Shown piece by piece: positions 13,101 through 49,848 of a DNA stretch of 64,000 nt; the first letter of the stretch is position 1; each line of letters starts with the position of its first letter. Location of the stretch: NCBI GenBank assembly GCA_944371905.1, contig CALVYA010000004.1, positions 9,078 to 73,077 of the forward strand, given 5' to 3'. The stretch is from an uncultured Bacilli bacterium (GTDB lineage Bacteria; Bacillota_I; Bacilli_A; RF39; UBA660). A program made the position numbers and the translations under genes. The notes beneath the pieces are model-generated. The model had not been told where the DNA came from. It did not search any database and worked only from the letters and a program-made list of their open reading frames with translations.

Positions 13101-13102
13101 AG

Positions 13103-29372: not shown

Positions 29373-29429
29373 TTTTATCTTTATTTTTTCTTATTTTTCA
29401 ATTCTTTTTTAAAACTGCCCGTTATTCAG
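29373..29429 (-). repeat. Conserved 3' flank shared with paralog 2 (40010-40067)
   Basis: ~57 nt, differing by one substitution and one indel. Confidence 0.85.
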
Positions 29430-31413
29430 TAATTATATAAGGCTCAGAACTAGTGCCATCTCCTTGGATAATTTCAACATCAGCACTTAAATTAATGACC
29501 GGGCGGACACCTCCAACAATATTAACATTGCCATAGTTATCTATGCCTCCAAAGGAACCAATACTACCAGCATGAGCTATACCTTCAGAAAAATCAATAG
29601 GACTCATTGTCCAATACCAAGCTCCTGTATATAGAAAATAATCATTATTTTCTCTTACTAATCCTCCACCCGCATACATTCCTTCATCTAATGTTATTAA
29701 TCCTATTGGATAATCTAATGCTTTATTTCCTTTATTACTACTACTAGTTGTATACAAATCATTACTTTGTGGGCATCCAAACCGTGGCGCGAATTCATCG
29801 ATTCTGTTAACTAAACTATACATAGTTTCATTTTGAGCATATCCTGATCCATCAAATACACTTCTATCACCGCAGAAACCACTATCTGATAAAAATTTAG
29901 TATAACTTAGTAAATTTTCTTTATACCAAGCATCTAAATATAATTTCATTACACTATCATGGGTATTAATATGTGTTGAATCATAATTATTACCTCCTGC
30001 CTCGCCATACATATATCCTACATAGGCATTATCATTGTAAGCAGTATTACAAGCACTTTTTCCTATCGTGGCTTCGTTTCCTGTCGCCCTAGAATTTGTA
30101 CCTTGATAAATGAGTCTTATTGACTCATCTTCATTAATTCTTATAATCCTCCAGTAAAATCCTGCAAAATATACATAATTATTCTCTACTGCTCCCCTAA
30201 AATAATACGTTGTCTTATTATCTTCCGTATTCTTGTTTGTATAGTATAATCCCGTCGTTCCATCCTCTTCACTCGTTTTACTAAAATCGATATTGGTATC
30301 TATTTGGGCTATGTTATCTTTTAATATTGCTATATTTAAATATGGTATCTTCTCTACATTACTTTTTAATGTTATTATTACTGGCCTTATTCTTTTTGCT
30401 GTAGTAGCTGAAGCTGTTGTTATTGTACTTCCATTAAAGTAATAAACAGTATTATTGCTGGTTCCTTTAGTCATTAACCAAAAGTTATAATTATTGGTTG
30501 TTGGTACCCAACTAGGAATTCCTCTTTTTGTTAGGTCATCATATTCTTCTTTCGTTAATAGTCTTGCTGTGGTTCCTGCTATATTCCCTCCATTATTCTT
30601 GATACTATTCTTGATATATGTTTCTACCGTATTCTTAACATAATATCCTATGTTATTTGTATCAAACTGATCATATTCATTCGTATTGTTACTATCAAAA
30701 GCTTTTGTATAAGTTCCATTCGTGGATACACTTCCATTACTACTTACTGTATTTTCACTTACTAGGGTTACTTTATCTTCATTACTAGAACTATTTTTAG
30801 TAACATACCAAATAGTGCCATCGATCAATCGAACCGCTTCTCCTACTTCATAAATTTCATACTCTCCTTCACTACTTCCTCCGGAACTACTTGGTTTACT
30901 ATTATCTATATAAATAAACGTTAGCATTAATTCTTTTTTTGTTTCACTGATATTCGTTACTCCACTTTTATATTTGATTGTTACTTTGGCTGTATTGGTC
31001 TCTCCTGGAGCTAAGGTTGTTACTTCTTCTTCTATCCCACTAATCTCATAAGTAATATTACTGTTCTCATCTTCAATTATTTCAATGTCATTTAATTTGG
31101 CTGGAATATTCCCTTGATTAGATAAAGTAATAGTATAAGTGATGGTAGAACTTGACGTTGGTAAGTTAGCATTTAAGGTTACTGTATTACTTACATAGTT
31201 ACTACTGATACTTGTAGCACTATTCGTTACCGTATTGGTTACCTTTGTTACCTTTACTATCCAACTTCTATCGATACTTGCTATTCCGTCTAGTTCTATA
31301 TATTGACTTAAAGCGGCATCCCCTAGGCTCATTACAAATACCACAAGACATAAGGATAACACTAGTATTCGCCTTTTTGTAAAGAACCTTTTTATTCTCT
31401 TCGTTGTTACCAA
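29422..31413 (-). CDS. Secreted TasA-like / CLec-like (DUF6273-like) surface protein, paralog 1; start codon doubtful
   Basis: N-terminal hydrophobic signal + LAPGETNTAKVTI Ig-like domain; YFRGAVENNYV, YPIGLITLDE, GVRPVINL, GDGTSSEPY. Confidence 0.75.
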   Translation of the reverse strand: MVTTKRIKRFFTKRRILVLSLCLVVFVMSLGDAALSQYIELDGIASIDRSWIVKVTKVTNTVTNSATSISSNYVSNTVTLNANLPTSSSTITYTITLSNQGNIPAKLNDIEIIEDENSNITYEISGIEEEVTTLAPGETNTAKVTIKYKSGVTNISETKKELMLTFIYIDNSKPSSSGGSSEGEYEIYEVGEAVRLIDGTIWYVTKNSSSNEDKVTLVSENTVSSNGSVSTNGTYTKAFDSNNTNEYDQFDTNNIGYYVKNTVETYIKNSIKNNGGNIAGTTARLLTKEEYDDLTKRGIPSWVPTTNNYNFWLMTKGTSNNTVYYFNGSTITTASATTAKRIRPVIITLKSNVEKIPYLNIAILKDNIAQIDTNIDFSKTSEEDGTTGLYYTNKNTEDNKTTYYFRGAVENNYVYFAGFYWRIIRINEDESIRLIYQGTNSRATGNEATIGKSACNTAYNDNAYVGYMYGEAGGNNYDSTHINTHDSVMKLYLDAWYKENLLSYTKFLSDSGFCGDRSVFDGSGYAQNETMYSLVNRIDEFAPRFGCPQSNDLYTTSSSNKGNKALDYPIGLITLDEGMYAGGGLVRENNDYFLYTGAWYWTMSPIDFSEGIAHAGSIGSFGGIDNYGNVNIVGGVRPVINLSADVEIIQGDGTSSEPYIITE

Positions 31414-31439
31414 CTCCGTTTTAGTTTATCTCTTATATC

Positions 31440-31470
31440 ATTATACCCCCCCCCCCCAGAAAATTTTCAA
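31440..31470 (-). promoter_or_regulatory. Poly-G (G12) spacer promoter of paralog 1
   Basis: Minus strand TTGAAA(31470-31465)-19 nt incl. G12(31457-31446)-TATAAT(31445-31440). Confidence 0.8.
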
Positions 31471-31586
31471 CAAAAATTTTTAGGGATCTTACATTATTTG
31501 ACAGGGTACATTATCTTATAATTTTATTTTATCAAATAAACTTTCTCTTTTAAATACTCCTGCACCCTATAAATTTCAACAAAAAA
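31440..31586 (-). repeat. ~147-bp conserved upstream element shared with 41578-41725
   Basis: Colinear high-identity non-coding alignment by eye. Confidence 0.85.
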
Positions 31587-31592
31587 GAACAA

Positions 31593-33383
31593 TTAATCCA
31601 TTGCTCTTTTAAATAATTTTTCTAGTTCATATTTAGAATAAGATATAATCGTTGGTCTTCCATGAGGACAAGTAAATGGATTCTCAGTTTTTCTTAAAGT
31701 ATCCAATAAATATTCCATATCTGCAAGACTAATATGATCGTTTGCTTTAATACTCATTTTACAAGCAAGAGTAATTGCTACTTTTTCTGTAAATTTATAG
31801 CTATCAAAGCTTTCTTTAGAAATAATAATATCAATAATCTTTCTAATAGCTTCCTCTACATTACCACTTGGTAACCAAAAAGGATGACTTCGAATTAATA
31901 TAGCATTATTACCAAATTCCTCTACTACAAAATTTAATTCTTCTAATAAATTCATATGTTCTTTTAAAATAATAAAATCATTGGTTGGTAATTCAATTCT
32001 AATAGGAATTAATAAATCTATCATTTTATTATCATGGCTTCCCATAGCTTTTAAATATTTTTCATAATTAATTCTCTCATTAGCTGCATGCTGATCGATC
32101 ATATACATTCCATCTTCGTTTTCCGCAATAATATAAGTCCCATGGACTAATCCTACAGGATACATTTTTTTTACTCTTTCGGTACTATTGGTATCATTAT
32201 TGTAAGATATTTCGTTATTATTTTCACTAACTTCAAAATCAAATGATAATTCTTCTATCTCTTTATTTGATTGATCAAAAGAATCCTTATCATCGTGAGA
32301 ATCCATATAGTTATCAATGATTTTAGTTAAATCTATCTTACTAGGTTGCATAGAAATACTTTCTGGTTTTTCTTTTGAAGATTCTATTTTAGGAATCAAA
32401 GTAAGTTGTTCTAATTTGGAACTAATCACTTTATGAATTAATTCTTTCAATACATCAAAAGAAGAAAATTTAATATCCATTTTTGTCGGATGAATATTTA
32501 CATCTATTAAATACGGATCAGCTTCAATATTTAAAATTATAATTGGATATTTTCCTTCATGAATATAAGTATGATAACTATCTAATATACATTTATTTAA
32601 GTCATTATTACGAATAATTCTACCATTTACTAACGTAGTAATTACGGATCTAGTAGATCTTGTCACTTCGGGATAAGAAATATATCCTTCTACCTTATAG
32701 TCTCTATTTTCACCTTCTATTTTGATCATTTTCTTACTAACATCTAGTCCATAAATATTATAAATGACTTTTAATAGATTCCCAGAACCATCTGTATTTA
32801 GTAAAACCTTTTCATTATTAGTTAAAGTAAATTTAATCTTAGGAAAAGATAAAGCCATTTTATTTACGTATTCCACAATATTAGATAACTCTATATATAA
32901 ATTTTTTAAGTATTTTAATCTAACTGGAGTATTGTAAAATAAATCCTTTACTGTTATTCTAGTACCTTGCTTTAAATCGCTATTATTTACACTTTCAATA
33001 TTTCCACCATGAATCACGACTTCTGTTCCTGTTTTTCCATCACTAGTTTTTAAGGTAACACGACTAACAGATGCGATCGATGGTAATGCTTCTCCACGAA
33101 ATCCTAAACTTTCTATATTAAACAAGTCTTCTAGATCTTTTAATTTACTAGTAGCATGTCTAGAAAACGCAAGAGTAGCATCATTTCTATCCATCCCAAT
33201 CCCATCATCTGTAACTGTAATCTCTTTTACTCCACTATCTACTAAATCAATTTTAATAGAACTACTTTTAGCATCAATAGAATTTTCTACTAATTCTTTT
33301 ACTACATTCATTGTTTTCTCAACAACTTCTCCAGCAGCAATTTTATTAGCTAAATTTTCATCCATTACTTTTATTTTACTCAT
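31593..33383 (-). CDS. mutL: DNA mismatch repair protein MutL
   Basis: IAAGEVVE, KELVENSIDA, GFRGEALPSI, DVNIHPTK, DQHAANER, ACKMSIK, CPHGRP. Confidence 0.97.
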   Translation of the reverse strand: MSKIKVMDENLANKIAAGEVVEKTMNVVKELVENSIDAKSSSIKIDLVDSGVKEITVTDDGIGMDRNDATLAFSRHATSKLKDLEDLFNIESLGFRGEALPSIASVSRVTLKTSDGKTGTEVVIHGGNIESVNNSDLKQGTRITVKDLFYNTPVRLKYLKNLYIELSNIVEYVNKMALSFPKIKFTLTNNEKVLLNTDGSGNLLKVIYNIYGLDVSKKMIKIEGENRDYKVEGYISYPEVTRSTRSVITTLVNGRIIRNNDLNKCILDSYHTYIHEGKYPIIILNIEADPYLIDVNIHPTKMDIKFSSFDVLKELIHKVISSKLEQLTLIPKIESSKEKPESISMQPSKIDLTKIIDNYMDSHDDKDSFDQSNKEIEELSFDFEVSENNNEISYNNDTNSTERVKKMYPVGLVHGTYIIAENEDGMYMIDQHAANERINYEKYLKAMGSHDNKMIDLLIPIRIELPTNDFIILKEHMNLLEELNFVVEEFGNNAILIRSHPFWLPSGNVEEAIRKIIDIIISKESFDSYKFTEKVAITLACKMSIKANDHISLADMEYLLDTLRKTENPFTCPHGRPTIISYSKYELEKLFKRAMD

Positions 33384-33413
33384 ATCAAAACCCTTTACTA
33401 CTACTTTTTCTTA

Positions 33414-33776
33414 TTAATCTGTATCCATATCAATATAAGATTTACCATTTGTCGGATCTACATAATAAATAATTTCGCTATCATCTACTATATTAGTAAC
33501 AATAACTTTATAAAAACTATCTTCTGTTACTTCATATCTAAACTCATAATTATCACTACCGAAGTTTTCTTTTACGATTTCAATCGCTTGTTCTCCTGTC
33601 ATATCAGTAGCTTCTTCTAATTGATCTTCTCTTTGCTCTTCTTGTTCTTCTTTTGTAGGAGTATCCTTACCTTCCTCTTCTTTCGCTAAATTAATAATAA
33701 TTACTCCTGCAATAATTAAAAGAAGTGCTACTGCAATAGCAATGATTAAACGTAAATTATTCTTAATAAATTTCAT
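33414..33776 (-). CDS. Membrane-anchored small protein, PepSY-like
   Basis: N-terminal TM; EQAIEIVK...YYVDPTNGK pattern. Confidence 0.55.
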   Translation of the reverse strand: MKFIKNNLRLIIAIAVALLLIIAGVIIINLAKEEEGKDTPTKEEQEEQREDQLEEATDMTGEQAIEIVKENFGSDNYEFRYEVTEDSFYKVIVTNIVDDSEIIYYVDPTNGKSYIDMDTD

Positions 33777-33829
33777 ATCTTACACCTTCCTATAATAAGT
33801 ATTATAACCCCTTTTTGATTTTAAGTAAA

Positions 33830-35617: not shown

Positions 35618-35693
35618 AAGAATCACCGATACTATTATAGCATATCTACTAGCAGGAAAGCCAATAATAAGTTATAATAATAGAGGTGATTTT

Positions 35694-36269: not shown

Positions 36270-36284
36270 TCAAAATTCTCTTTT

Positions 36285-36590
36285 TTAGTCAAACCAACGC
36301 ATTAACACTTCTTTAGGAACAAATCCTATTTGTTTTTTATCTATTACTCCATCTTTAAATAGAATAATAGTAGGAATCGACATAATACCATATGCTTTAG
36401 CAATATCTTCTCGCTCATCTACATTCACTTTTAATACTTTCACATCTTTTAATTCATTACTTACTTCTTCAATAATAGGTCCTACCATACGACAAGGACC
36501 ACACCAATCTGCATAAAAGTCTACTAAAACAGTACCACTTTTAATTTCTTCCTTGAAATCTTCCTTTGTTAAATGTTTTACCATACTCAT
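36285..36590 (-). CDS. trxA: Thioredoxin
   Basis: DFYADWCGPC, SIPT. Confidence 0.96.
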   Translation of the reverse strand: MSMVKHLTKEDFKEEIKSGTVLVDFYADWCGPCRMVGPIIEEVSNELKDVKVLKVNVDEREDIAKAYGIMSIPTIILFKDGVIDKKQIGFVPKEVLMRWFD

Positions 36591-36594
36591 TCTC

Positions 36595-37302: not shown

Positions 37303-37366
37303 ATACTTCCTCCTTATTATAGTATAATCAAATTATAACGATATATTAAAAAATAGTCAATTAAGT

Positions 37367-39916: not shown

Positions 39917-40009
39917 ATACTTCACCTACAAAAGATATTATACCAAAGATGGGTACTTTTTTCTAATAAAAAAAGAATAATTTTTGGTAATATATTCCAA
40001 CATCATTCT

Positions 40010-40067
40010 TTTTATCTTTATTTTTTCTTATTTTTCAATTCCTTTTTTAAAACTGTCCGTTATTCAG
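40010..40067 (-). repeat. Conserved 3' flank shared with paralog 1
   Basis: GAATAACGGACAGTTTTAAAAAAGGAATTGAAAAATAAGAAAAAATAAAGATAAAA (minus strand). Confidence 0.85.
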
Positions 40068-41547
40068 CTAATTGATATGGATTAGAAACAGTTCCATCTC
40101 CTATCAATTGTCCTGCATCAGATTTCAGATTGATGACCGGACGGACACCCCTCGAATAGTTGACGCGGTAGTCGCTGAACAAGCGACCGAAGGAATTGAC
40201 GCCGCCAACGACAGCGTAAGACCCATCGAAGCCGACAGGGGTAAGACCCCAATAGTAATCACCTGTATATAAGTAATAACTTTCATTACTATTAAAAACT
40301 GTTCCCCCTGCATACATTCCTTCATCTAAGGTTATCAATCCTATTGGATACTCTAATGACTTATTCCCTTTTGTACTATTTCTTGTTGTATATAAATCTT
40401 GATTTTGTGGACAACTATATTGTGGTTGATAAGTATTAAATAATCTATTATTTATTTGATAATATGTTTCGTTCTTTCCATATCCTAATCCAGTAGACCC
40501 TTCCAAAGTAGCAATACTTCTATCTCCACAAAATCCACTATCTGCTATGTAACTCGCATAACTTAATAAATTCTCTTCATACCATGTATCTAATACTGTT
40601 TTGATTGTACTATCATTAATATTTGCATGGGTCTCTTCATAGGTGCTACTTCCAGGTGTTCCATACATATATCCTACATACGCATTATCATTATATTCTT
40701 CATTAAATGCACTACTTCCTATCATTGCTTCACTTCCCATTGCATCTGGTGTTGTTCCTTGATAGATAATTCTTAAACTTCCATCTTCATTGATTCTTAT
40801 AATCCTCCAATAGTATCCTGCAAATTTTACATAGTTATTCTCTACTGCTCCTCTATAGTAATATACTGTCTTCCCATCTTCTGTATTTGTGTTCGTATAA
40901 TATAATCCTTTCGTTCCATCTTCTTCACTTGTCTTACTAAAATCTATTTCACTATCATTTTTTACTGTATTATCTTCTAGTATAGAATTAATGAAAGATG
41001 GTCCTTCTATTTCTGGATCACTTGGGGTTATCTCTTGTCCTACATTTTGGGCATAATCAATATTTACTGTTAACTTATTATTTGTCTTTTCTGGTTGACT
41101 TGTTATACTATTATCATAACTTATCTTTATCTTAAATGTCGTACTTTCTTGTTTTAATAAGATATCTCCTATTCTTATATTACTGATTTCAAACTTTATT
41201 GCATCACTTCCAGTCTCACTAGCATTAATATCTTCTATGATGGCATCTAGTGTTCCTTGGTTCTCTACTGTGATTTGATATTCTATTGAGTCTCCCGGCT
41301 TTTGTAAATCTACATCAAATGTGACCGTTGTTCCACTTGCTGTTGGAGTATTATTTATCGTTACTCCATTTGTTTTACTTAACTCTTGAATATTCGTAAA
41401 TACTACTTTCCAATTCGATTCGATACTTGATGTTCCATTGATATTTAATGTTGTACTAAATGCTGCAAATGCTATTGCCATAATACAAATTAAACTACAC
41501 ATCACTCCTATGATTATTTTCTTTTCTCTCATATACTTCTCTTTCAT
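40060..41547 (-). CDS. Secreted TasA-like / CLec-like surface protein, paralog 2; probable DGR target
   Basis: IAFAAFSTTLNINGT signal motif, LQKPGDSIEYQITVENQG domain, C-terminal YW..GVRPVINL domain with GC-rich tip. Confidence 0.8.
   Translation of the reverse strand: MKEKYMREKKIIIGVMCSLICIMAIAFAAFSTTLNINGTSSIESNWKVVFTNIQELSKTNGVTINNTPTASGTTVTFDVDLQKPGDSIEYQITVENQGTLDAIIEDINASETGSDAIKFEISNIRIGDILLKQESTTFKIKISYDNSITSQPEKTNNKLTVNIDYAQNVGQEITPSDPEIEGPSFINSILEDNTVKNDSEIDFSKTSEEDGTKGLYYTNTNTEDGKTVYYYRGAVENNYVKFAGYYWRIIRINEDGSLRIIYQGTTPDAMGSEAMIGSSAFNEEYNDNAYVGYMYGTPGSSTYEETHANINDSTIKTVLDTWYEENLLSYASYIADSGFCGDRSIATLEGSTGLGYGKNETYYQINNRLFNTYQPQYSCPQNQDLYTTRNSTKGNKSLEYPIGLITLDEGMYAGGTVFNSNESYYLYTGDYYWGLTPVGFDGSYAVVGGVNSFGRLFSDYRVNYSRGVRPVINLKSDAGQLIGDGTVSNPYQLAE
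40126..40263 (-). other. Putative DGR variable region (VR) with IMH-like GC core GGTGTCCGTCCGGTCAT
   Basis: 46 consecutive codons with no A at third position, 23 ending in C; 71/120 G+C at 40131-40250 versus AT-rich rest of gene. Confidence 0.75.
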
Positions 41548-41577
41548 ACTCCCTCCGTTATTATTCTTCCTATCCTC

Positions 41578-41608
41578 ATTATACCCCCCCCCCCCAGGAA
41601 TTTTTCAA
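41578..41608 (-). promoter_or_regulatory. Poly-G (G12) spacer promoter of paralog 2
   Basis: Minus strand TTGAAA(41608-41603)-19 nt incl. G12(41595-41584)-TATAAT(41583-41578). Confidence 0.8.
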
Positions 41609-41725
41609 GAAAAATTTTTAAGGACCTTACATTATTTGACAGGGTATCATATTCTATAATTTTATTTTATCAAACATTCAGTTTCTTTAAAATACTCCTA
41701 CACCCTATATTTCTCGACAAAAAAA
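41578..41725 (-). repeat. ~148-bp conserved upstream element shared with 31440-31586
   Basis: Colinear non-coding alignment. Confidence 0.85.
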
Positions 41726-41745: not shown

Positions 41746-42702
41746 TTATTTTACTTTACCTAAACTTTTTAAGTGATATCTTCCTACTTCATCTTGTGTA
41801 AAAACATACTTATATTCCGTAAAATGATCTAATTCTTTTTCTATCTCTTCTTTATTTAAAGTAGCAACACCATTTTTTATGGTTGCATCAAAATTATCAA
41901 TAAAATTCTTAAATTCGATATTCTTATATAATTTAATTTGACTACTATTTTCTGGTGCTACTTGAAGGAAAGCAACTTTCTCATAAATTTCAATGGTATT
42001 ATCAACTTTTTTAGCTTCACTATAATAATTAATATACATCTGTTCGCTTTTCATAAATCCACTAGAAAGACTTTCTTTTGATATTTCAATCGTACCTTCT
42101 ACGTCATTATATCTTATTAATGGATAAGTTGGTAACGAAGAAATATTTATTACATATGGTCGAACCTCACTAATATCTTTTGGTAACTCATCTAAATTAT
42201 CTCCAAAAACATCACTTATCAATCGAATCACATCTAAACTATCAATTACATAGCCTATTTCATAGCTTACACCATTATATTCTAATGTTTCATTTCCATT
42301 ATACTCATCATAATCAGATATTTTACTTAACAATAGCATCATAATTAAATTACTATCTAAATTGTTAACATCTCTCACAGTCTTTAAACGATAAATATTA
42401 GTCTCAATACTATTTTCATCTAAAGATTTACTAGTCTCTAAACTACCATTAGTTTTACTTATTAGACTTAATAACTCCTCTATTTCTTCCTCTTCCATAT
42501 CTAATTCTTCTTCTGTTGGTTCTTGCTCTTCTTCTGGATTAGAACTAGGATCTTCTTCTTCCATGATTTCCTCTTCCTCATTATTTTTATCTTTTCCTTT
42601 GCTTTGGCTTACACCAATAGCAATCATTAAAACAATAAGTGCAATGACTACAATAATTATTAAAATTGCTACTATTTTTCCTGGTTTCCTTTCCTCATCC
42701 AT
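41746..42702 (-). CDS. Hypothetical membrane-anchored extracellular protein
   Basis: N-terminal TM helix, acidic linker. Confidence 0.7.
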   Translation of the reverse strand: MDEERKPGKIVAILIIIVVIALIVLMIAIGVSQSKGKDKNNEEEEIMEEEDPSSNPEEEQEPTEEELDMEEEEIEELLSLISKTNGSLETSKSLDENSIETNIYRLKTVRDVNNLDSNLIMMLLLSKISDYDEYNGNETLEYNGVSYEIGYVIDSLDVIRLISDVFGDNLDELPKDISEVRPYVINISSLPTYPLIRYNDVEGTIEISKESLSSGFMKSEQMYINYYSEAKKVDNTIEIYEKVAFLQVAPENSSQIKLYKNIEFKNFIDNFDATIKNGVATLNKEEIEKELDHFTEYKYVFTQDEVGRYHLKSLGKVK

Positions 42703-42722
42703 TTCTATTCTCCTTTACTAAT

Positions 42723-43748: not shown

Positions 43749-43783
43749 ATCCTTATTTAATTATAACAGAAAGACTGATAATT

Positions 43784-44752
43784 ATGAAAACAAAAATAAC
43801 AAGTTTACTTATTGTTGTACTATTAGTAATTACTACTATATTATTTTTAACTTTTCCAGAAGATGTCATGTCTTCAGTTAGCTTTTCTATTTCTATTTGG
43901 AAAGATACGCTAATTCCATCTTTATTTCCTTTCTTTTTAATTTCTGAATTATTAATTCATTATGGGTTTATTGAATTATTAGGTGAAGGATTAAGAGGTT
44001 TTATGAATAAAGTATTTCATTTACCGGGGGAAGCATCTTTCGTCTTAATTGGAAGTTTAATATCAGGGTTCCCTAGTAGTAGTAAATATATTAGTGGACT
44101 ATTAGATGATGGGAAAATTAATATTCAACAAGCTTCTTATTTATTAAAATTTAATCATTTTTCTAATCCTTTATTTGTAATTGGAACTGTAGGTACCTTA
44201 ATGTTAAATAACAAAAGTATTGGGATCTTAATTTTAATCATACATATATTATCCAATTTTATCGTAGCAATGATTTATCGTCCTAAATATTGTAATGATA
44301 CCCCTGCAAAATCATCTTTTTTTATAGGAATTAGTCGCATGCATAAAAAAAGAATAGATAATAATACTTCCTTCGCTTCCTTTCTTACTGAAAGTATTTT
44401 TAAGATATTTCAAACTTTATTATTACTATTGGGAATCATTACTAGTTTTTTAATTATTACTACGTTATTAAAAAAGGTTTTAAACTTAGATAGTATGTCC
44501 TTTTCTATTTTAAGCGGTCTTTTAGAAATGACACAAGGAATAAAAAATATATCTTTATTAGATATATCTCTTAGTATCAAAGCTAGTATTATTACTTTTT
44601 TTATTTCTTTTGGGGGATTTAGCATCCATATGCAAGTACTTTCTATTTTATCTAATTATAAAATAAAGTATCTTCCTTACCTTTTAGCAAGACTAGTTCA
44701 TGCTATCATTGCTAGTAGTATTATTTTCATCCTTTTAACCCTAGTTATTTAA
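43784..44752 (+). CDS. ylbJ: Sporulation integral membrane protein YlbJ-like
   Basis: LIPSLFPFF, SGFPSS, FSNPLF, GLLEMTQG, GGFSIHMQV; adjacent to ylbL. Confidence 0.85.
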   Translation: MKTKITSLLIVVLLVITTILFLTFPEDVMSSVSFSISIWKDTLIPSLFPFFLISELLIHYGFIELLGEGLRGFMNKVFHLPGEASFVLIGSLISGFPSSSKYISGLLDDGKINIQQASYLLKFNHFSNPLFVIGTVGTLMLNNKSIGILILIIHILSNFIVAMIYRPKYCNDTPAKSSFFIGISRMHKKRIDNNTSFASFLTESIFKIFQTLLLLLGIITSFLIITTLLKKVLNLDSMSFSILSGLLEMTQGIKNISLLDISLSIKASIITFFISFGGFSIHMQVLSILSNYKIKYLPYLLARLVHAIIASSIIFILLTLVI

Positions 44753-45287
44753 CCCCAGTAGTTACGACATCTATTACAAATTCATCATCCAAATCTTGAT
44801 GATCAATACGTAATTTTATATGATATATTACTCCATATTCTAAATTATCAGTACTAACAGAAGAAGTTAAAATATAATCATCTACCACATTAGCAAATTT
44901 AGGATCTGGATTATCATATTTTACTCCACCATATAGAATATAAAATGTTGGTATTTCAAAGTGACCATCCATGATCACATCTTCTACTACTTTTAATTGC
45001 TTAGTAGCACCATCTAGAAATTTAATATCGATACATTGTTTAATGATGGAATTATCATTATTTCTACAAAAATCAATAGAATCTACTTTACGATCTACTG
45101 TATCTTGATAAATATCTTGTGTTAAAGTATTTTGTAGTGTCAATAGATCTCTTCTTACAGATTCTTCTTGCTCTCTATTACGATAATTATTGACAAGAGC
45201 AAACATTGCTACTGCTAAAAACATAACTAGAGCAAAACTTAAAATTAATTCAATTACAGTAAAACCTTTATTATTATCCAACATCAT
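44745..45287 (-). CDS. Type IV pilin-like protein
   Basis: Class III signal KG|FTVIE + hydrophobic helix. Confidence 0.8.
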   Translation of the reverse strand: MMLDNNKGFTVIELILSFALVMFLAVAMFALVNNYRNREQEESVRRDLLTLQNTLTQDIYQDTVDRKVDSIDFCRNNDNSIIKQCIDIKFLDGATKQLKVVEDVIMDGHFEIPTFYILYGGVKYDNPDPKFANVVDDYILTSSVSTDNLEYGVIYHIKLRIDHQDLDDEFVIDVVTTGVK

Positions 45288-45861
45288 AACGCACCTCTAT
45301 ATTTGAAAATCTTCCATCATTAAATACTACTATCATTCTATAATAACTATCATATCTACTAGAATACTTTCCATAATCAGGAAGATAATCTACGTATTCT
45401 CTCAATGCTCGATCAAAATTCTTATTGTCTTTGACTTCATTTTTAAAACTTCCTAATTTAAACGGCGTTACAATGACTTCCTTGACATTTAAATAATCTT
45501 CACTAAATAATTTATTGCAATAATTAGGAGAAGTTAATAATGAACAAAGACGATTTTTAGTAACAACATCATCTCCTACCGTTTCATTATAATTTTGATA
45601 ACGATAGTAGCCACTATTACCTGAAATATGACTAGAAAATATACTAGTTAAATTAGCATCTTTATCAAATTCTCTTAGAAGCATTTTTCTAATTTCATGA
45701 GCTTTATATTTGGTATCTACATTATCGTAATCACTTACCCGTTCATAATCAGCGATCAATGGCAAAAAATTTGTAAATAAAAAGGTACATATCCCTATTA
45801 CAAATACTGCAACAATAATAGTTTCAACCATTACAAACCCCTGGTTGTCAATCTTTTTCAT
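45274..45861 (-). CDS. Type IV pilin-like protein
   Basis: Class III signal QG|FVMVE + hydrophobic helix. Confidence 0.75.
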   Translation of the reverse strand: MKKIDNQGFVMVETIIVAVFVIGICTFLFTNFLPLIADYERVSDYDNVDTKYKAHEIRKMLLREFDKDANLTSIFSSHISGNSGYYRYQNYNETVGDDVVTKNRLCSLLTSPNYCNKLFSEDYLNVKEVIVTPFKLGSFKNEVKDNKNFDRALREYVDYLPDYGKYSSRYDSYYRMIVVFNDGRFSNIEVRYDVG

Positions 45862-45955
45862 TTTTTCACTTACCTTTATTGATTATATCTTGAATCTATT
45901 ATATAATAAATTAGAGTAAAATACTATAGAGAAAATCAAAAAGGGGCTAAAAAGT

Positions 45956-47323
45956 ATGGTAGAATATGATTTACAACATGTACCAATAGTAGATATTGTT
46001 AACCAAATTATATTGTATGCTGCACAACATAATGCTAGTGACATACATTTGGATCCTAGGGAAGATTGTCTAATGATTCGTATGCGTATGGATGGACAAT
46101 TAAGAGACCATACTATGATTCCTAAAGAATATGAACGTAATTTAACTACTAGGGTAAAACTGATATCTAATATGAATATTACGGAAACAAGATTACCTCA
46201 AGATGGAGCCATTAAAGGACGTATTGAAGGAAAAGATTTAGATATGCGTGTATCTGCTCTACCTACTAATGAGGGAGAAAAAGTAGTTATTCGTATTTTG
46301 GATTTTACTAAAAGCTTGACAGGAATGGATAGTTTAGGTTTTTCTCCTAAAAATTATAAATTAGTTAGTAAGATGATGGAAGTACCTAATGGTATCATTT
46401 TAGTTACTGGTGCTACTGGTAGTGGTAAATCTACTACTACTTATTCCATGTTACAAGCACTAAATAAAGAAGAAACCAATATTATTACCGTAGAAGACCC
46501 AATAGAAATGAATATTGAAGGAATTAACCAAGTACAAGTAAATAGTGATATTGGATTAACTTTTGCCACCGTTTTAAGATCTATTTTAAGACAAGATCCT
46601 AATATTATTCTAATAGGAGAAATTCGTGATTCAGAAACAGCAAAAATAGCTGTTCGTGCTTCTATTACTGGTCACTTAGTACTATCAACTATCCATACTA
46701 ATGATTCTTTAAGTACTATTGAAAGATTACTAGATATGGATGTAGAACGATATTTATTGTCTAGTGCATTAACTGGTATTATTTCTCAAAAATTAGTAAG
46801 AACTCTTTGTCCTTATTGTCGTAAAAAAAGACCTGTCACTCCTTATGAAGAACATTTTTTTAGAAGAGTGTTAAATAAATATGTTCCTGAAGTATACGAA
46901 CCTGTGGGATGTGAACACTGTAATCACGGATTTAGAGGCCGTATGGCTGTACATGAAGTTTTATATATTACTGATCACTTGAGAGATGTTATTAGTGATC
47001 CTAGTATTGATAAAGAAGAATTAAGAAAAATTGTTTATAATGGAAGTACTACTACTCTACTACAAGATGCTTTAGAAAAAGTAATTGAAGGATATACAAC
47101 TTTTAATGAAGTGGTACGTATCGTTGAAGTAGATGCTGATTTAGAAAAAAGTATTTCAACTGAAGTGGAAGAAGAAACTGTTTCTAAATATGAAAAAGAG
47201 GAAGAAGAGAAAGAAATATATGAAATTATTGATGCGTATGAATTAGAAGTCATTGATGCTTATGCTGTTGAAATAGAAATTATCGATATGTATGATAGTT
47301 TTAGATTAAATTATGGCACTTAA
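45956..47323 (+). CDS. PilB/GspE-family secretion or pilus assembly ATPase
   Basis: ASDIHLDP, GATGSGKS, TVEDPIE, LRQDP..GEIRD, HLVLSTIH, CPYC..CEHC zinc motif. Confidence 0.92.
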   Translation: MVEYDLQHVPIVDIVNQIILYAAQHNASDIHLDPREDCLMIRMRMDGQLRDHTMIPKEYERNLTTRVKLISNMNITETRLPQDGAIKGRIEGKDLDMRVSALPTNEGEKVVIRILDFTKSLTGMDSLGFSPKNYKLVSKMMEVPNGIILVTGATGSGKSTTTYSMLQALNKEETNIITVEDPIEMNIEGINQVQVNSDIGLTFATVLRSILRQDPNIILIGEIRDSETAKIAVRASITGHLVLSTIHTNDSLSTIERLLDMDVERYLLSSALTGIISQKLVRTLCPYCRKKRPVTPYEEHFFRRVLNKYVPEVYEPVGCEHCNHGFRGRMAVHEVLYITDHLRDVISDPSIDKEELRKIVYNGSTTTLLQDALEKVIEGYTTFNEVVRIVEVDADLEKSISTEVEEETVSKYEKEEEEKEIYEIIDAYELEVIDAYAVEIEIIDMYDSFRLNYGT

Positions 47324-47353
47324 AAAACCTTTGCGAAAAATCGTAAAGGTTTT
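47324..47353. terminator. Bidirectional terminator between the PilB-like ATPase and paralog 3
   Basis: AAACCTTTGCGA-AAAA-TCGTAAAGGTTT between convergent genes. Confidence 0.75.
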
Positions 47354-47358
47354 ATTTT

Positions 47359-49848
47359 TTAATCCGTTAGAATTATATATGGATCATTTTCTGTACCATT
47401 ACCTGATATCCACTCTACATTAGATTTTAAATTAATTACGGCACGAACACTTAACAAGTAGTTCAATCTGCGTATATCTAAATTACCATCATTACCTACT
47501 GTAAAATTATATGCATAATTACGATCTATTTCACTACCACCATTTTCTAAAGAAACATTGCTTGGTGTCATCGTCCAATACTCACCTTCAGAATATAAAT
47601 AATAACTATCATTTGATTTACTTATTACTCCTCCTGCATATGCTACTTCATCTAAAGATATTAATCCAACCGGATAATCTAACGCTTTATTTCCCTTTGT
47701 ACTACTAGATGTAGTATATAAATCATTACTTTGTGGACACGCAAACTGTGGTGTTTTATTATTATATAATCTATTGTATGCTCCATAGTAAGTAGTAGTT
47801 TCCGCAATTCCTGTCCCACTAGATAAGCTCCTATCTCCACAAAATCCTGCATCTGCTAAATAAGAAGCATAATCCAATAGATTTTCTTCATACCAAGTAT
47901 CTAATACTGTCTTGATTCTACTATCATTGATATTAGCATGTGTTGCTGAATAACTACTACTTCCTGTCTCTCCATACATATATCCTACATGGGCATTATT
48001 ATTATAAACAATATTAAACACACTATTTTGAGTTTCAATTTCAGCGTCTTGTTTATCCATAATAATTCGAATAGAACCGTCTTCATTAATTCTTATAATC
48101 CTCCAGTAAAATCCTGCAAATTCTACATAGTTATTTTCTACTGCTCCCCTAAAATAATAGGTGGTTTTATTATCTTCTGTATTTTCATTGGTATAATATA
48201 ATCCTTGTCCATTAGTACTACTACTTATTTGACTAAAATTGATATTACTATCACTTTGTTCATTATTGTCTTCTAATATTTGATCTTTTAAATATGCCGG
48301 TTGTTTTATATTCCCTTTTAATGTGGTTATTACTGGTCTTACTCGATAATACGAAGTTGGCGTTGCTTGCGATAAACTACTCCCATTAAAGTAATATACA
48401 TTATTTCCTATTTTCGTCATCAACCAATATCCATACCCATTGGCTACTTTTACCCAACTTGGTATTTCACTTCCCTTCTTCGTCATTTTATCATATTCTT
48501 CTTTGGTTAATAACCTAGCTTTCGTACTGGCTTCTTTTCCTCCATTATTTTTTATACTATTCTTAATATAACTTTCTACGGTATTCTTTACATAATATCC
48601 TATATTATTACTATCATAGGGATCATATTCGTTGGTATTATTACTATCAAAAGACCTCCCTGCTACCGATGGTGGTACTGCTACGCTCCCATTACTTGCT
48701 GCTAAGTTCTCACTCATTAATGTTACCATCGCATTTCCTGTCCCACTATCTTTGGTTACATACCATATCGTTCCATCTATTAGTTCCACTTTCTCTCCTA
48801 CTTCATATCTTTTATGCTTTTCCAAATTACTCTTTGCTACTGTGATTACTGGTCTGATTCCACTTTCAATAGTATCATCTATTTTAAATATAAAAGTTTC
48901 TTCTTCTACGTAACCTATAACATAATAACTATTTGATCCATTTATTAATGATAATTCATGTTCTTCTCCTAATAACCATTCTGCTATAGTAAACTTCTCA
49001 CTGGAAGCCGAGTAATCTTTATTTGCATCATAGGCTATCCCTGATAACTTTGCTATCTCTTCCATCGTTGGTAATCTTTTTGTTAATACTTTACTTTTGT
49101 TATAGTATACATTTGCATAGTTATTTAAGGCGGTTTGGGCTCCACTGGCTGTCGATGTCGTTACGGCTTCATCTGCTATCATTTGTACTGTAGTAGCACT
49201 TGTTGTGTCATTCGTGGTTACTATGTAATATAATTTCTCTCCATTCCCTGCATTATACATCACTGCTTCTCCTGGTTGATATACTACATTTTCTGTATCT
49301 GATGTGGAATCTCCTGAATTTCCTCCTGTTGTCCCACTATTTTCTACATAAATAAAGGTTAGCATTAATTCTTTTTTTGTTTCACTGATATTCGTTACTC
49401 CATTTTTATATTTAATTGTTACTTTGGCTGTATTGGTTTCTCCTGGGGCTAAGGTCGTTACTTCTTCTAATACCCCACTAATTTCATAGGTGATATTACT
49501 ATTCTCATCTTCAATTATTTCAATGTCATTTAATTTGGCTGGAATATTCCCTTGATTAGATAAAGTAATAGTATAAGTGATGGTAGAACTTGACGTTGGT
49601 AAGTTAGCATTTAAGGTTACTGTATTACTTACATAGTTACTACTAATACTACTTGCTCCATTACTTGTGGTATTAGTAACGTTCGTTACTTTTACTATCC
49701 AGCTTCTATCAATACTTGCTATTCCATCTAGTTCTACATATTGACTTAAGGCAGCATACCCTAGACTCATTACAAATACCACAAGACATAAGGATAACAC
49801 TAATATTCTTTTCTTATCAAAAAATCCTTTAATTTTCCTTTTCATCAC
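47359..49848 (-). CDS. Secreted TasA-like / multi-CLec-like surface protein, paralog 3
   Basis: SLGYAALSQY signal; N-terminal domain near-identical to paralog 1; three modules ending IRPVI, VRPVI, VRAVI. Confidence 0.8.
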   Translation of the reverse strand: MMKRKIKGFFDKKRILVLSLCLVVFVMSLGYAALSQYVELDGIASIDRSWIVKVTNVTNTTSNGASSISSNYVSNTVTLNANLPTSSSTITYTITLSNQGNIPAKLNDIEIIEDENSNITYEISGVLEEVTTLAPGETNTAKVTIKYKNGVTNISETKKELMLTFIYVENSGTTGGNSGDSTSDTENVVYQPGEAVMYNAGNGEKLYYIVTTNDTTSATTVQMIADEAVTTSTASGAQTALNNYANVYYNKSKVLTKRLPTMEEIAKLSGIAYDANKDYSASSEKFTIAEWLLGEEHELSLINGSNSYYVIGYVEEETFIFKIDDTIESGIRPVITVAKSNLEKHKRYEVGEKVELIDGTIWYVTKDSGTGNAMVTLMSENLAASNGSVAVPPSVAGRSFDSNNTNEYDPYDSNNIGYYVKNTVESYIKNSIKNNGGKEASTKARLLTKEEYDKMTKKGSEIPSWVKVANGYGYWLMTKIGNNVYYFNGSSLSQATPTSYYRVRPVITTLKGNIKQPAYLKDQILEDNNEQSDSNINFSQISSSTNGQGLYYTNENTEDNKTTYYFRGAVENNYVEFAGFYWRIIRINEDGSIRIIMDKQDAEIETQNSVFNIVYNNNAHVGYMYGETGSSSYSATHANINDSRIKTVLDTWYEENLLDYASYLADAGFCGDRSLSSGTGIAETTTYYGAYNRLYNNKTPQFACPQSNDLYTTSSSTKGNKALDYPVGLISLDEVAYAGGVISKSNDSYYLYSEGEYWTMTPSNVSLENGGSEIDRNYAYNFTVGNDGNLDIRRLNYLLSVRAVINLKSNVEWISGNGTENDPYIILTD

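What the first reader, a model, noticed from the sequence alone, without database searches (positions are those of the whole stretch)
29422..49848. Candidate integrated system: dispersed TasA-like fibre/adhesin family with hypervariable tips and ON/OFF promoters
Three paralogs (29422-31413, 40060-41547, 47359-49848) each have an N-terminal hydrophobic segment ending (G/A)(Y/F/D)AA(L/F)S, like SipW-class signal peptides. This is followed by a TasA/camelysin-like domain (L.PG....Y.ITV.N.G) and 1-3 modules ending in R(P/A)VI. Together with a DGR-like VR and slippage promoters, this suggests two-tier antigenic or receptor variation (sequence diversification plus expression switching) of surface fibres in a gut Bacilli lineage. 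I do not know of this combination having been described.
Basis: inference. Interest (0 to 1): 0.8.

Follow-up and report, generated by a model that had tools for sequence, protein, structure and literature searches.

The report
Phase-variable lectin-headed surface adhesin gene family
An uncultured, low-GC gut bacterium carries a large, unnamed family of surface proteins (a pilin-like base plus lectin-like heads); many copies sit behind a slippery run of G's inside the promoter and exchange sequence patches with each other, which is the classic design for varying the cell surface, found here in a new protein family.

Summary
The three paralogs are real. Each has a signal or anchor helix, an Ig-like domain, and one to three modules ending in R(P/A)VI.

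**Promoters.** Two paralogs have a 12-G run exactly between TTGAAA and TATAAT. These are the only G/C runs of 7 or more in the 64 kb window. The third has a fixed 18-nt spacer. In related uncultured Bacilli MAGs the family has at least 13-17 copies per genome. About half carry G10-G12 at the same promoter position. Tract length differs at orthologous loci whose flanks are otherwise identical (12 vs 13; 11 vs 12).

**Diversification.** No DGR was found: no reverse transcriptase, no TR/VR pair and no A-biased changes. Strain differences are patches that match other paralogs 100%, which indicates gene conversion.

**Protein identity.** TasA homology is not demonstrated; only a 30-residue motif matches. 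In sister genomes, however, a conserved triad is present: a small subunit homologous to the family's N-terminal domain, a SipW-type signal peptidase, and a DUF5305 protein. This triad is the hallmark of TasA-superfamily donor-strand fibre loci. The C-terminal domain is DUF6273-like (C-type-lectin-like).

**Most likely model:** switchable, recombining lectin-headed adhesins, possibly fibre tip subunits. This is a new variant of a known kind.

The parts
29422..31413 (-). Paralog P1 (663 aa): signal/anchor helix, Ig-like domain (about aa 47-172), one inserted lectin-like module (about aa 190-345, nt 30379-30846), and the conserved ~310-aa C-terminal DUF6273-like domain (nt 29425-30351). It has a TTG start that abuts the ribosome-binding site.
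31440..31470 (-). P1 promoter: -35 TTGAAA (31465-31470), 7-nt spacer part, G12 tract (31446-31457), -10 TATAAT (31440-31445). The total spacer is 19 nt.
   Evidence: not listed by the 16-18 nt promoter scan
31438..31586 (-). 149-nt upstream element, 85% identical to the one upstream of P2. It contains the promoter and the conserved box ACCCTGTCAAATAATGTAAG. Its function beyond the promoter is unknown.
   Evidence: (D8)
40060..41547 (-). Paralog P2 (495 aa), the minimal architecture: helix aa 2-33, Ig-like beta-sandwich (about aa 45-170, nt 41038-41415), and the C-terminal DUF6273-like domain (aa 185-495, nt 40063-40995).
41578..41608 (-). P2 promoter: -35 TTGAAA (41603-41608), AATTCCT, G12 tract (41584-41595), -10 TATAAT (41578-41583). 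The spacer is 19 nt. The ortholog in another sample has G13 with otherwise identical DNA.
41576..41724 (-). Upstream conserved element of P2, the partner of 31438-31586.
   Evidence: D8
47359..49848 (-). Paralog P3 (829 aa): helix, Ig-like domain, module A (nt 48814-49293), module B (nt 48289-48801), and the C-terminal domain (nt 47362-48261). In a sister strain the gene is a mosaic while 10.9 kb that includes its first ~880 nt is 99.96% identical.
49885..49914 (-). P3 promoter without a slippery tract: TTGTAA, an 18-nt spacer ending in GGGG, then TATAAT. It is identical in the sister strain.
29384..29421 (-). Downstream flank conserved between P1 and P2 (its partner is 40022-40059). Together with the upstream element, it shows that a whole cassette was duplicated.
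   Evidence: D10
40022..40059 (-). Downstream conserved flank of P2.
   Evidence: D10

Best explanation
The three genes belong to a very large, unnamed family of exported proteins of uncultured low-GC gut Bacilli. Each protein has four parts:
- an N-terminal signal or anchor helix;
- a short conserved segment;
- a pilin-like Ig-fold domain;
- one to three lectin-like (DUF6273-type) modules, the last being a conserved ~310-aa head with a variable tip.

**Shown.** Many copies, including two of the three here, carry a poly-G tract inside the promoter spacer. Tract length differs between paralogs, between species, and between strains at the same locus. Strains that are otherwise about 100% identical differ inside these genes by patches that are exact copies of other paralogs.

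**Inferred.**
- Slipped-strand mispairing changes the -35/-10 spacing. Copies with fixed promoters use 17-18 nt. The two tracts here give 19 nt and are therefore probably low or OFF. Each copy would thus switch expression stochastically and independently.
- Gene conversion among paralogs reshuffles the binding heads.

**More speculative.** After cleavage by a SipW/TafD-type signal peptidase working with a DUF5305 (TafG-like) partner, the pilin-like domain docks by donor-strand exchange onto a fibre built from a small homologous subunit encoded next to that peptidase. The family would then be a switchable repertoire of fibre tip adhesins.
For: **Family and copy number**
- More than 6379 homologs were found, none of them named.
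- There are 9749 50%-identity cluster representatives at E <= 1e-3.
- The search of species-representative genomes gave 429 hits. At least 13-17 copies fall in each of four Bacilli MAGs, and many contigs end inside the genes.

**Promoter tracts**
- The two 12-G tracts are the only long G/C runs in the window, and both sit in promoter spacers.
- Twenty of 46 related loci have G10-G12 at TTGCMA-8 nt-Gn-TATAAT. A further five or so have interrupted tracts, and the remainder have fixed promoters with 17-18 nt spacers.
- Same-locus polymorphism: G12 vs G13 with 7.5 kb otherwise identical outside the gene; G11/G11 vs G12.
- One contig breaks at the tract.

**Gene conversion**
- All 30 substitutions in a 7488-nt orthologous alignment lie inside P2. 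Twenty-five of them fall in two patches.
- Each patch is 100% identical to another paralog. One donor is in the same assembly.
- P3 is a mosaic in a sister strain.
- The N-terminal regions of P1 and P3 are 95% identical at the DNA level.

**Fold**
- The AF2 model has pLDDT 84.5, with a helix, a disordered segment at residues 33-43, an 8-strand sandwich and a large C-terminal domain.
- The C-terminal domain matches phage DUF6273 proteins (E = 1.6e-4 to 2.8e-3).
- It also matches PDB 9qa6, whose N-terminal domain is DUF6273 (PMC12402451).
- DUF6273 has been described as C-type-lectin-like (PMC10743442).
- 23 of 73 homologs hit PF19789.

**Fibre context**
- A SipW-type peptidase plus DUF5305 lies immediately upstream of a paralog.
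- The triad of small subunit, peptidase and DUF5305 is conserved in 5 loci representing 3 further lineages of relatives.
- The small subunit aligns end to end with the family's signal plus Ig domain (36% identity, E = 1.6e-24).
- Signal peptidase plus DUF5305 is the conserved core of Tafi/Abp/TasA-superfamily donor-strand fibre loci, which also encode tip proteins (PMC11821415, PMC12337348, bioRxiv 10.64898/2026.01.04.697558).
Against: - No expression data exist, and which tract lengths are ON is unknown.
- Interrupted ('locked') tracts give 19-20 nt spacers, which fits awkwardly with 19 nt being OFF.
- A one-base difference in a 12-13 G run between assemblies could be a consensus or sequencing error.
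- The peptidase/DUF5305/small-subunit triad is not in the window. It was seen only in related assemblies.
- TasA-superfamily membership of the Ig domain is not shown by sequence or by Foldseek.
- The inserted modules have no significant structural match and no Pfam hit in the window proteins.
- No multimer modelling was possible.
- P1 lacks a good start codon.
Confidence: 0.65

Rival explanations
1. One reading: a diversity-generating retroelement mutagenises a variable region in the heads, in combination with promoter slippage.
For: - DUF6273/C-type-lectin-like domains are bona fide DGR targets in gut phages (PMC10743442; other DUF6273 papers listed).
- The most variable stretch among the paralogs lies just before the final VRPVINL strand, where C-type-lectin variable regions sit.
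Against: - No RT motif occurs in any frame of the window.
- There is no TR/VR-like repeat.
- No A-biased mismatch window exists among the paralogs.
- The between-strain substitutions are of all base types. They lie in the Ig domain and at the start of the head, and they are exact copies of other paralogs.
Confidence: 0.04
2. The switching and recombination are the same, but the proteins are stand-alone, N-terminally membrane-anchored (uncleaved signal-anchor) or freely secreted lectin-like adhesins. They are not subunits of a donor-strand fibre. On this view, the small homolog next to the peptidase is just another family member.
For: - The N-terminal helix of about 30 residues is modelled as a single transmembrane-like helix.
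- There is no significant TasA, Abp or pilin structural match.
- Only one paralog in the data set is adjacent to the peptidase.
- Relatives attach the same head to other anchors: dockerin, Flg_new, LRR, and a prepilin N-terminus.
Against: - The conserved post-helix segment (A-A-L/F-S-x-x-L-x-I-x-G-x-A-S-I-x-x-x-W) is shared with the 166-190-aa subunit of the peptidase operon, and it is disordered in the monomer model, as donor strands are.
- The small subunit ends exactly where the paralogs' Ig domain ends.
- The triad matches published donor-strand fibre loci (PMC11821415; bioRxiv 10.64898/2026.01.04.697558).
Confidence: 0.28
3. The poly-G runs are static promoter elements or sequencing/assembly artefacts, and the genes are ordinarily regulated.
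For: - Homopolymer lengths in short-read assemblies are error-prone.
- Several loci in one species all read G12.
- One same-locus comparison showed no difference (L004 and L102).
Against: - The tract is at the same promoter position in independent studies and species, while the surrounding spacer sequence differs.
- Lengths range from 7 to 13, with interrupted variants.
- No other long G/C run exists in 64 kb. There is only one in 565 kb of related DNA, and none on the opposite strand.
- Two same-locus length differences were found.
Confidence: 0.05
4. The conserved C-terminal domain is an enzyme (for example, acting on glycans or proteins) rather than a binding head.
For: - Many invariant polar residues occur in the domain core (H307, D320, C340, D342, R343, C379, D384, K393).
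- The closest solved relative is the N-terminal domain of an IgA protease (PMC12402451).
Against: - There is no catalytic-family match in Pfam, NCBIfam or PDB.
- In the IgA protease the catalytic unit is the separate M64 domain (PMC12402451).
- DUF6273 is used as a receptor-binding head in phages (PMC10743442).
Confidence: 0.08

Closest known systems
Neisseria meningitidis porA / opc promoter homopolymer phase variation (PMC3639595)
   Same: A poly-G (or poly-C) tract lies between the -35 and -10 hexamers of a surface-protein gene. Slippage changes the spacer length and therefore expression.
   Different: Those are single genes for outer-membrane porins or adhesins of a diderm pathogen. Here there is a family with dozens of members, in a different protein family, in an uncultured monoderm gut commensal. 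Expression has not been measured.
Mycoplasma hyorhinis Vlp and related mycoplasma variable surface protein families (own knowledge; poly-A tract in the promoter spacer)
   Same: A multigene family in a low-GC Bacilli-related lineage. Each gene has its own homopolymer in the promoter spacer, which gives combinatorial ON/OFF surface mosaics. Recombination occurs among the paralogs.
   Different: Vlps are lipoproteins with tandem-repeat regions, encoded in one cluster, in wall-less cells. Here the genes are dispersed between housekeeping genes. The proteins have no canonical lipobox, are built from Ig plus lectin-like domains, and the organism appears to be walled (PASTA kinase, FtsW).
Treponema pallidum tpr genes: poly-G-modulated promoters (PMC7864442) and tprK gene conversion (own knowledge)
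   Same: A combination of G-homopolymer-dependent transcription and segmental gene conversion in a paralogous surface-antigen family.
   Different: The protein family is unrelated. tprK uses silent donor cassettes, whereas here the donors are other full-length, potentially expressed paralogs, and no silent fragments are present in the window.
TasA-superfamily donor-strand fibres: B. subtilis TasA/SipW, archaeal Tafi (TafD peptidase + TafG DUF5305), Abp/AbpX loci with tip proteins (PMC11821415, PMC12337348, bioRxiv 10.64898/2026.01.04.697558)
   Same: An archaeal/SipW-type signal peptidase plus a DUF5305 accessory protein lies next to a small beta-sandwich subunit. Larger proteins share that subunit's domain and could act as tip or minor subunits. 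A TasA-like A-x-F-S signal-end motif is present.
   Different: No significant sequence or structure match to TasA, Abp or Tafi pilins was obtained here. The peptidase carries a ~250-aa polytopic N-terminal extension. The candidate tip genes are scattered genome-wide, number in the dozens, and are phase-variable. None of these points was reported in the papers I found.
DUF6273 / C-type-lectin-like heads of gut phage receptor-binding proteins ('tentaclins', PMC10743442) and the N-terminal domain of the Thomasclavelia ramosa IgA protease (PMC12402451)
   Same: The C-terminal domain has the same fold class, supported by Foldseek hits and partial PF19789 hits in homologs. The variable surface lies near the last strands.
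   Different: In phages the domain is diversified by a DGR. Here no DGR is seen, and diversity comes from paralog exchange. The domain here is about 310 aa, enlarged by a ~150-aa conserved insertion. The window proteins themselves do not reach the Pfam threshold.
FimH-type two-domain tip adhesins of chaperone-usher pili (own knowledge)
   Same: The concept is the same: a pilin domain for incorporation into the fibre plus a lectin domain for binding. fim expression is phase-variable.
   Different: The domain order is reversed and the folds and assembly machinery are unrelated. fim switches by promoter inversion and has a single adhesin rather than a repertoire.

Membership tests
Simple-sequence-repeat (promoter-spacer) phase variation | A hypermutable homopolymer located between the -35 and -10 hexamers | tested here: met
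   G12 lies between TTGAAA and TATAAT for P1 and P2. The same layout is present in 20 of 46 related loci.
Simple-sequence-repeat (promoter-spacer) phase variation | Tract length polymorphic at the same locus between strains or populations | tested here: met
   G12 vs G13 (window vs L081). G11/G11 vs G12 (L008/L104 vs L103). L004 and L102 are both G11. Caveat: these are assembly consensus sequences, not reads.
Simple-sequence-repeat (promoter-spacer) phase variation | Expression level depends on tract length and switches reversibly within a clone | not testable with these tools
   This needs reporters, transcriptomes or read-level data. The only indirect hint is that fixed-promoter paralogs use 17-18 nt spacers against 19 nt here.
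TasA / camelysin (Pfam Peptidase_M73) | Significant match to the family profile | tested here: not met
   P2 gives E = 0.014 and 15.7 bits (cut-off 22.5) over 30 residues. 17 of 73 homologs match below threshold, the best at 8.4e-4.
TasA / camelysin (Pfam Peptidase_M73) | Structural similarity of the domain to TasA | tested here: inconclusive
   No TasA entry appears among the top 50 Foldseek PDB hits. The best hits are generic Ig-like domains at E of about 1e-3. No dedicated pairwise superposition was possible.
TasA-superfamily donor-strand fibre locus (Tafi/Abp type) | Archaeal/SipW-type signal peptidase I with a DUF5305 accessory protein next to a small beta-sandwich subunit | tested here: met
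   This is met in related genomes, not in the window. In L084, TIGR02228 scores 105.6 bits and PF17231 has E = 1e-20. The triad is present in L084 and L086-L091. The small subunit is homologous to the family's N-terminal domain.
TasA-superfamily donor-strand fibre locus (Tafi/Abp type) | Polymerisation by N-terminal donor-strand exchange | not testable with these tools
   Only indirect evidence exists: a conserved amphipathic segment after the signal is disordered in the monomer model (pLDDT < 50 at residues 33-43).
DUF6273 (PF19789, C-type-lectin-like) | Match to the Pfam profile | tested here: inconclusive
   The window proteins give no hit even at E <= 10. Close homolog P0045 scores 27.2 bits (cut-off 23.5), but only over profile positions 122-172. 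23 of 73 homologs match.
DUF6273 (PF19789, C-type-lectin-like) | Same fold as known DUF6273 domains | tested here: met
   This holds for the C-terminal domain. BFVD DUF6273 proteins match at E = 1.6e-4, 1.1e-3 and 2.8e-3 (TM up to 0.53 on the target). PDB 9qa6 matches at E = 3.8e-3 over 330 columns. It is not shown for inserted modules A and B, where C-type lectin CRDs appear only at E = 0.5-3.
Diversity-generating retroelement target | A reverse transcriptase and a template repeat nearby | tested here: not met
   There is no RT motif and no TR-like repeat in 64 kb. The rest of the genome could not be searched.
Diversity-generating retroelement target | Variation confined to positions that are adenines in the template | tested here: not met
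   Substitutions are of all base types, and the patches equal other paralogs. There are no A-biased windows.
Type IV pilin / pseudopilin | Class III signal: short basic leader, G|F/M-x-x-x-E, N_methyl motif | tested here: not met
   The three paralogs give no N_methyl hit, whereas the neighbouring gene 44745-45287 does hit. The hydrophobic segment precedes the A-A-L/F-S site.

The most novel reading that the evidence does not exclude
Uncultured gut Bacilli build a TasA-superfamily-like donor-strand fibre from three conserved core components: one shaft subunit, a polytopic SipW-type peptidase, and a DUF5305 partner. They cap or decorate this fibre with one of dozens of genome-dispersed tip adhesins. 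Each adhesin gene is switched independently by a poly-G promoter tract. The C-type-lectin-like heads are continually reshuffled by gene conversion between paralogs. This would be a cellular, DGR-free counterpart of phage receptor-binding-protein diversification, and the first phase-variable adhesin repertoire for this fibre class.
Probability: 0.35. Interest if true: 0.8.

Novelty: new variant of a known kind. Interest (0 to 1): 0.6.

Why it matters
The bacteria that carry this family are uncultured, reduced-genome gut Bacilli. They have been recovered from Hadza, Brazilian, rabbit and goat samples, and their biology is essentially unknown.

If the model holds:
- It shows how these bacteria vary their surface, whether against host IgA, against phages or for different glycan niches. 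They would do so with a combinatorial switchboard of the kind known from Neisseria, Mycoplasma and Treponema, built on an entirely different and uncharacterised protein family with thousands of members.
- It gives a functional context (tip adhesin, signal peptidase plus DUF5305 export) to DUF6273-type heads and to bacterial relatives of the newly described archaeal donor-strand fibres.
- It explains practical problems in the MAGs of these lineages, such as contig breaks at the family's genes and at the poly-G tracts.

Tried and rejected
**Hypotheses tested and rejected or left unsupported**
- **DGR.** I searched all six frames for RT motifs, looked for TR/VR repeats, and scanned paralog alignments for A-biased mismatches. 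All were negative.
- **TasA membership.** Pfam, NCBIfam, a PDB sequence search with single sequence and with a profile, Foldseek, and hhalign against TasA found only a 30-residue PGD...N.G motif.
- **Type IV pilin.** I considered this because a GspE ATPase and two prepilin-like genes adjoin P3. The paralogs lack a class III signal.
- **SipW-type peptidase in the window.** None was found.

**Searches that returned nothing useful**
- Rfam search of the window: no hits, so the conserved upstream element is not a known RNA.
- Terminator scan around P1 and P2: none found.
- Metagenome scan with the upstream box CCCTGTCAAATAATGTAAG: one unrelated high-GC chance hit only.
- Exact look-ups of the window's own P2 and thioredoxin: not on record.
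- SipW/DUF5305 in the 4-kb flanks of 79 paralog loci: found only in L084.
- Extra or silent copies in the window: none.
- Structure search of the inserted modules: no significant PDB match.
- BLASTP of P3 against itself: the modules are not detectably similar to each other.
- Look-up of a multi-sample paralog (P0080): it turned out to have no G tract. It served only as a stable control.

Full report
**1. The observation**

ORF listing finds three minus-strand genes at exactly the stated coordinates: P1 29422-31413 (663 aa), P2 40060-41547 (495 aa) and P3 47359-49848 (829 aa). Their alignment shows 47-66% identity and a common plan:
- a basic N-terminus and a hydrophobic helix ending in GDAALS, AFAAFS or GYAALS;
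- a ~125-aa beta-rich domain;
- zero, one or two inserted modules;
- a strongly conserved ~310-aa C-terminal domain (GLYYT...YYFRGAVENNYV.FAG.YWRIIRINEDGS...GFCGDRS...CPQ...GVRPVINL).

The modules ending R(P/A)VI number 2, 1 and 3. The genes lie between ordinary housekeeping genes. On the minus strand the order is GDPD, P3; YlbL-like protease, unknown, P2, mutS; mutL, P1, unknown, miaA. No further copies or fragments are present in the window.

**2. The promoters**

About 30 nt upstream of P1 and P2 the sequence reads TTGAAA, 7 nt, G12, TATAAT. A run-length census shows these are the only G or C runs of 7 or more in 64 kb of 27% GC DNA. The next longest is a single 6-mer. Chance cannot explain this: by my arithmetic the expected number of 12-mers is about 6e-6.

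The resulting spacer is 19 nt, so the 16-18 nt consensus scan does not list these promoters. P3 has a fixed TTGTAA-18 nt-TATAAT promoter with only GGGG.

P1 and P2 also share a 149-nt upstream element (85% identity) and a ~40-nt downstream flank. Whole cassettes were therefore duplicated. The upstream element matches no Rfam family, and its role beyond carrying the promoter is unexplained.

**3. The family elsewhere**

P2 has more than 6379 homologs among the scored candidates, none of them named. An exhaustive search finds 9749 50%-identity cluster representatives at E <= 1e-3 and 5397 at E <= 1e-10. The C-terminal domain is repeated up to 12 times in giant proteins.

Among species-representative genomes there are 429 hits. 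The best 80 fall almost entirely in a few uncultured 'Bacilli' MAGs from Hadza, Brazilian, rabbit and goat samples, with at least 13-17 copies per MAG. Many contigs end inside the genes.

In 46 of these loci with a complete 5' end:
- 20 have TTG(C/A)(C/A)A, 8-9 nt, G10-G12, TATAAT.
- About five more have interrupted tracts, for example GGGGGAGGGGG.
- The rest have ordinary promoters, with 17-18 nt spacers in all nine that could be parsed.

In 565 kb of this related DNA every long G run but one is at such a promoter, and none lies on the opposite strand. The tract is therefore a conserved, family-specific promoter feature whose length is not conserved.

**4. Are the tracts fixed?**

An orthologous locus from another sample (L081, same YlbL-unknown-P2-mutS synteny) aligns to the window over 7488 nt with a single gap: G13 instead of G12.

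In a Hadza lineage, one locus with an identical protein reads G11, G11 and G12 in three assemblies. Another locus reads G11 twice. One contig begins about 10 nt after the tract, which is an assembly break at that point. A paralog without a tract is identical, promoter included, in ten samples.

These are assembly consensus sequences, so single-base differences carry some risk of error. Read-level counts are the decisive test.

**5. The second tier is gene conversion, not a DGR**

In the 7488-nt alignment, all 30 substitutions lie inside P2. Of these, 25 cluster in two patches (nt 219-259 and 772-839). They involve all base types.
- The first patch, as found in L081, is 100% identical over 70 nt to another paralog (P0004). 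A copy of that paralog lies in the same assembly.
- The second patch is 100% identical over 90 nt to paralog P0003.

P3 behaves likewise. A stretch of 10.9 kb that includes the first ~880 nt of the gene is 99.96% identical to a sister strain. The end of module A and the distal two-thirds of the C-terminal domain are diverged or unalignable. The N-terminal 300 nt of P1 and P3 are 95% identical.

By contrast, there is no RT motif in any frame, no template/variable repeat pair, and no A-biased mismatch window. The DGR component of the finding is therefore not supported, at least within the window.

**6. What the proteins are**

Pfam and NCBIfam give only sub-threshold Ig-like hits for the N-terminal domain: DUF7507, HYDIN-type Ig, choice-of-anchor D, and Peptidase_M73 at E = 0.014 over 30 residues. 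Across 73 homologs the weak hits are to HYDIN-Ig (39), DUF6273 (23, best 4.2e-6), Peptidase_M73 (17, best 8.4e-4) and DUF7507 (15). There is no PDB sequence match.

The AF2 model of P2 (pLDDT 84.5) has these parts:
- a helix at residues 2-33;
- a disordered stretch at 33-43;
- an eight-strand sandwich;
- a large, confidently modelled C-terminal domain.

Foldseek finds generic Ig-like domains for the sandwich (E about 1e-3). For the C-terminal domain it finds PDB 9qa6, the Thomasclavelia ramosa IgA protease (E = 3.8e-3, 330 columns). The N-terminal domain of that protease is annotated DUF6273 (PMC12402451).

Against viral models, the C-terminal domain matches several gut-phage 'DUF6273 domain-containing' proteins (E = 1.6e-4 to 2.8e-3). 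DUF6273 has been described as C-type-lectin-like and as a DGR target in phage receptor-binding proteins (PMC10743442). The head is therefore plausibly a ligand-binding, lectin-like domain.

The inserted modules (model pLDDT 78.5) have no significant PDB match. C-type lectin CRDs appear only at E = 0.5-3.

TasA homology is not demonstrated.

**7. An export and fibre context found outside the window**

One paralog (P0003, G12 promoter, 5'UTR identical to that of P2) lies directly downstream of two genes:
- a 382-aa protein whose C-terminal part is an archaeal/SipW-type signal peptidase (TIGR02228, 105.6 bits against a cut-off of 51.85), preceded by a ~250-aa polytopic region;
- a DUF5305 protein (PF17231, E = 1e-20).

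This peptidase architecture has 640 relatives. In five further loci, representing three more-distant lineages, it is again followed by DUF5305 and preceded by a small protein of 166-296 aa with no Pfam family.

That small protein is homologous, end to end, to the signal plus Ig domain of the family (36% identity, E = 1.6e-24). It stops exactly where the paralogs continue into their linker and heads. The segment A-A/L-L-x-x-x-L-x-I-x-G-x-A-x-I-x-x-x-W after the helix is shared.

In the literature, a signal peptidase plus DUF5305 (TafD/TafG) is the conserved core of archaeal Tat-fimbriae and of Abp/AbpX-type loci of the 'TasA superfamily'. Those loci also encode a major subunit, minor subunits and predicted tip proteins that assemble by donor-strand complementation (PMC11821415, PMC12337348, bioRxiv 10.64898/2026.01.04.697558).

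By analogy, the window's proteins may be tip or minor subunits, that is, a pilin-like domain plus lectin-like heads. The disordered conserved N-terminal segment would be the donor strand. This step is inference: the triad is not in the window, and multimer modelling was not available.

Synteny also shows that the paralogs behave as insertable cassettes. L086 has the same gene order as L084 (small subunit, SipW-type peptidase, DUF5305, ThiF, LexA) but has no paralog between DUF5305 and ThiF.

**8. Mechanism proposed**

Shown:
- family membership and copy number;
- poly-G tracts in promoter spacers, with length varying between paralogs, species and strains;
- exact paralog-derived conversion patches;
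- a DUF6273-like head.

Inferred:
- Slippage alters the spacer length and therefore transcription of each copy independently. With 19-nt spacers, P1 and P2 are probably in a low or OFF state in this assembly, while P3 is constitutive.
- Gene conversion reshuffles the heads.
- The proteins are exported and cleaved by the SipW-type peptidase.

Speculative:
- They are displayed on a donor-strand fibre.

One awkward point is that interrupted ('locked') tracts give 19-20 nt spacers. The ON length is therefore uncertain, and G-rich spacers may have a different optimum.

**9. Comparison with known systems and novelty**

The regulatory logic is that of N. meningitidis porA/opc (PMC3639595), the Mycoplasma Vlp families (own knowledge) and the T. 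pallidum tpr genes (PMC7864442). The diversification resembles gene-conversion systems such as tprK or vlhA (own knowledge). The protein family, its lineage and its probable link to a signal peptidase/DUF5305 fibre system are different. Literature searches for DUF6273, for DUF5305, for poly-G phase variation with RF39, and for TasA with tip adhesins and phase variation found no description of it.

I rate it a new variant of a known kind. It was right on four points: the family, the switches, the SipW idea and the lectin-like heads. Its DGR mechanism is not supported, and its claim of TasA homology is unproven.

**10. Context**

The window is ordinary chromosome, with grpE-dnaK-dnaJ, mutS/mutL, uvrC and a type II CRISPR-Cas locus. 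Standard genetic code 11 gives intact long ORFs. Related genomes encode a PASTA kinase and FtsW, so the organism is probably walled.

Noticed in passing
window 8598-15238: Type II CRISPR-Cas locus. It comprises Cas9 (1056 aa, 8598-11768), Cas1 (11882-12784), two further ORFs (12756-13100, and 13103-14167 with no Pfam hit), and an array of 36-nt repeats GTTTTAGTATTCTGTTAATTTAAGGTATTTGAAAAC at 14215-14631. An orphan repeat at 15153-15188 lies beyond ORF 14639-15175. A XerC/D-like recombinase gene follows at 15312-16217.
   Followed up: partly
window 44745-47323: Type IV pilus/Com-like remnants lie beside P3: a GspE/PilB-type ATPase (45956-47323, +) and two prepilin-like genes (45274-45861 and 44745-45287, -; one has an N_methyl motif). 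No PilC or PilD was seen nearby. No link to the paralogs was established, although a distant relative (P0174) carries a prepilin N-terminus on a related head.
   Followed up: partly
window 31593-33383 and 37367-39925: P1 lies immediately downstream of mutL, and P2 immediately upstream of mutS. Mismatch-repair genes are thus flanked by repeat-controlled genes. The same synteny is seen in L081. This may be coincidence.
   Followed up: no
window 31395-31420: P1 has no ATG. The only early start is a TTG that abuts the GGAG ribosome-binding site. A gene caller chose a 646-aa product that lacks the basic N-terminal region. P1 may be poorly translated or decaying.
   Followed up: partly
window 31438-31586 and 41576-41724: A conserved ~150-nt element lies upstream of the poly-G promoters. 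It includes ATAGGGTG(Y)AGGAGTATTT and ACCCTGTCAAATAATGTAAG, and variants of it are present in a sister species (L001, L003, L015, L084). It has no Rfam match and its function is unknown. It could be a regulator site, a second promoter, or a homology arm for cassette exchange.
   Followed up: partly
L083:1-42: The contig starts about 10 nt after the position of the poly-G tract of a paralog. The assembly breaks exactly at the tract.
   Followed up: no
L092-L101 (400 nt upstream of the gene): A paralog without a G tract (P0080) has an identical protein and promoter in ten samples from several studies. This contrasts with the mosaic, tract-bearing copies.
   Followed up: partly
L084:316-1464; L086:7001-8149: The SipW-type signal peptidase is fused to a ~250-aa polytopic N-terminal membrane region. 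This 382-aa architecture is conserved in 640 relatives and always lies next to a DUF5305 gene. The role of the extension is unknown.
   Followed up: partly
window 41746-42702: A 318-aa protein with an N-terminal transmembrane segment and a long acidic low-complexity stretch lies directly upstream of the P2 cassette. It has no family match and is conserved in L081.
   Followed up: no
L090:11204-12352; L091:7128-8276: An IS605 OrfB/TnpB-like (Cas12f-related) gene lies a few kb downstream of the peptidase/DUF5305 operon in a more distant relative.
   Followed up: no
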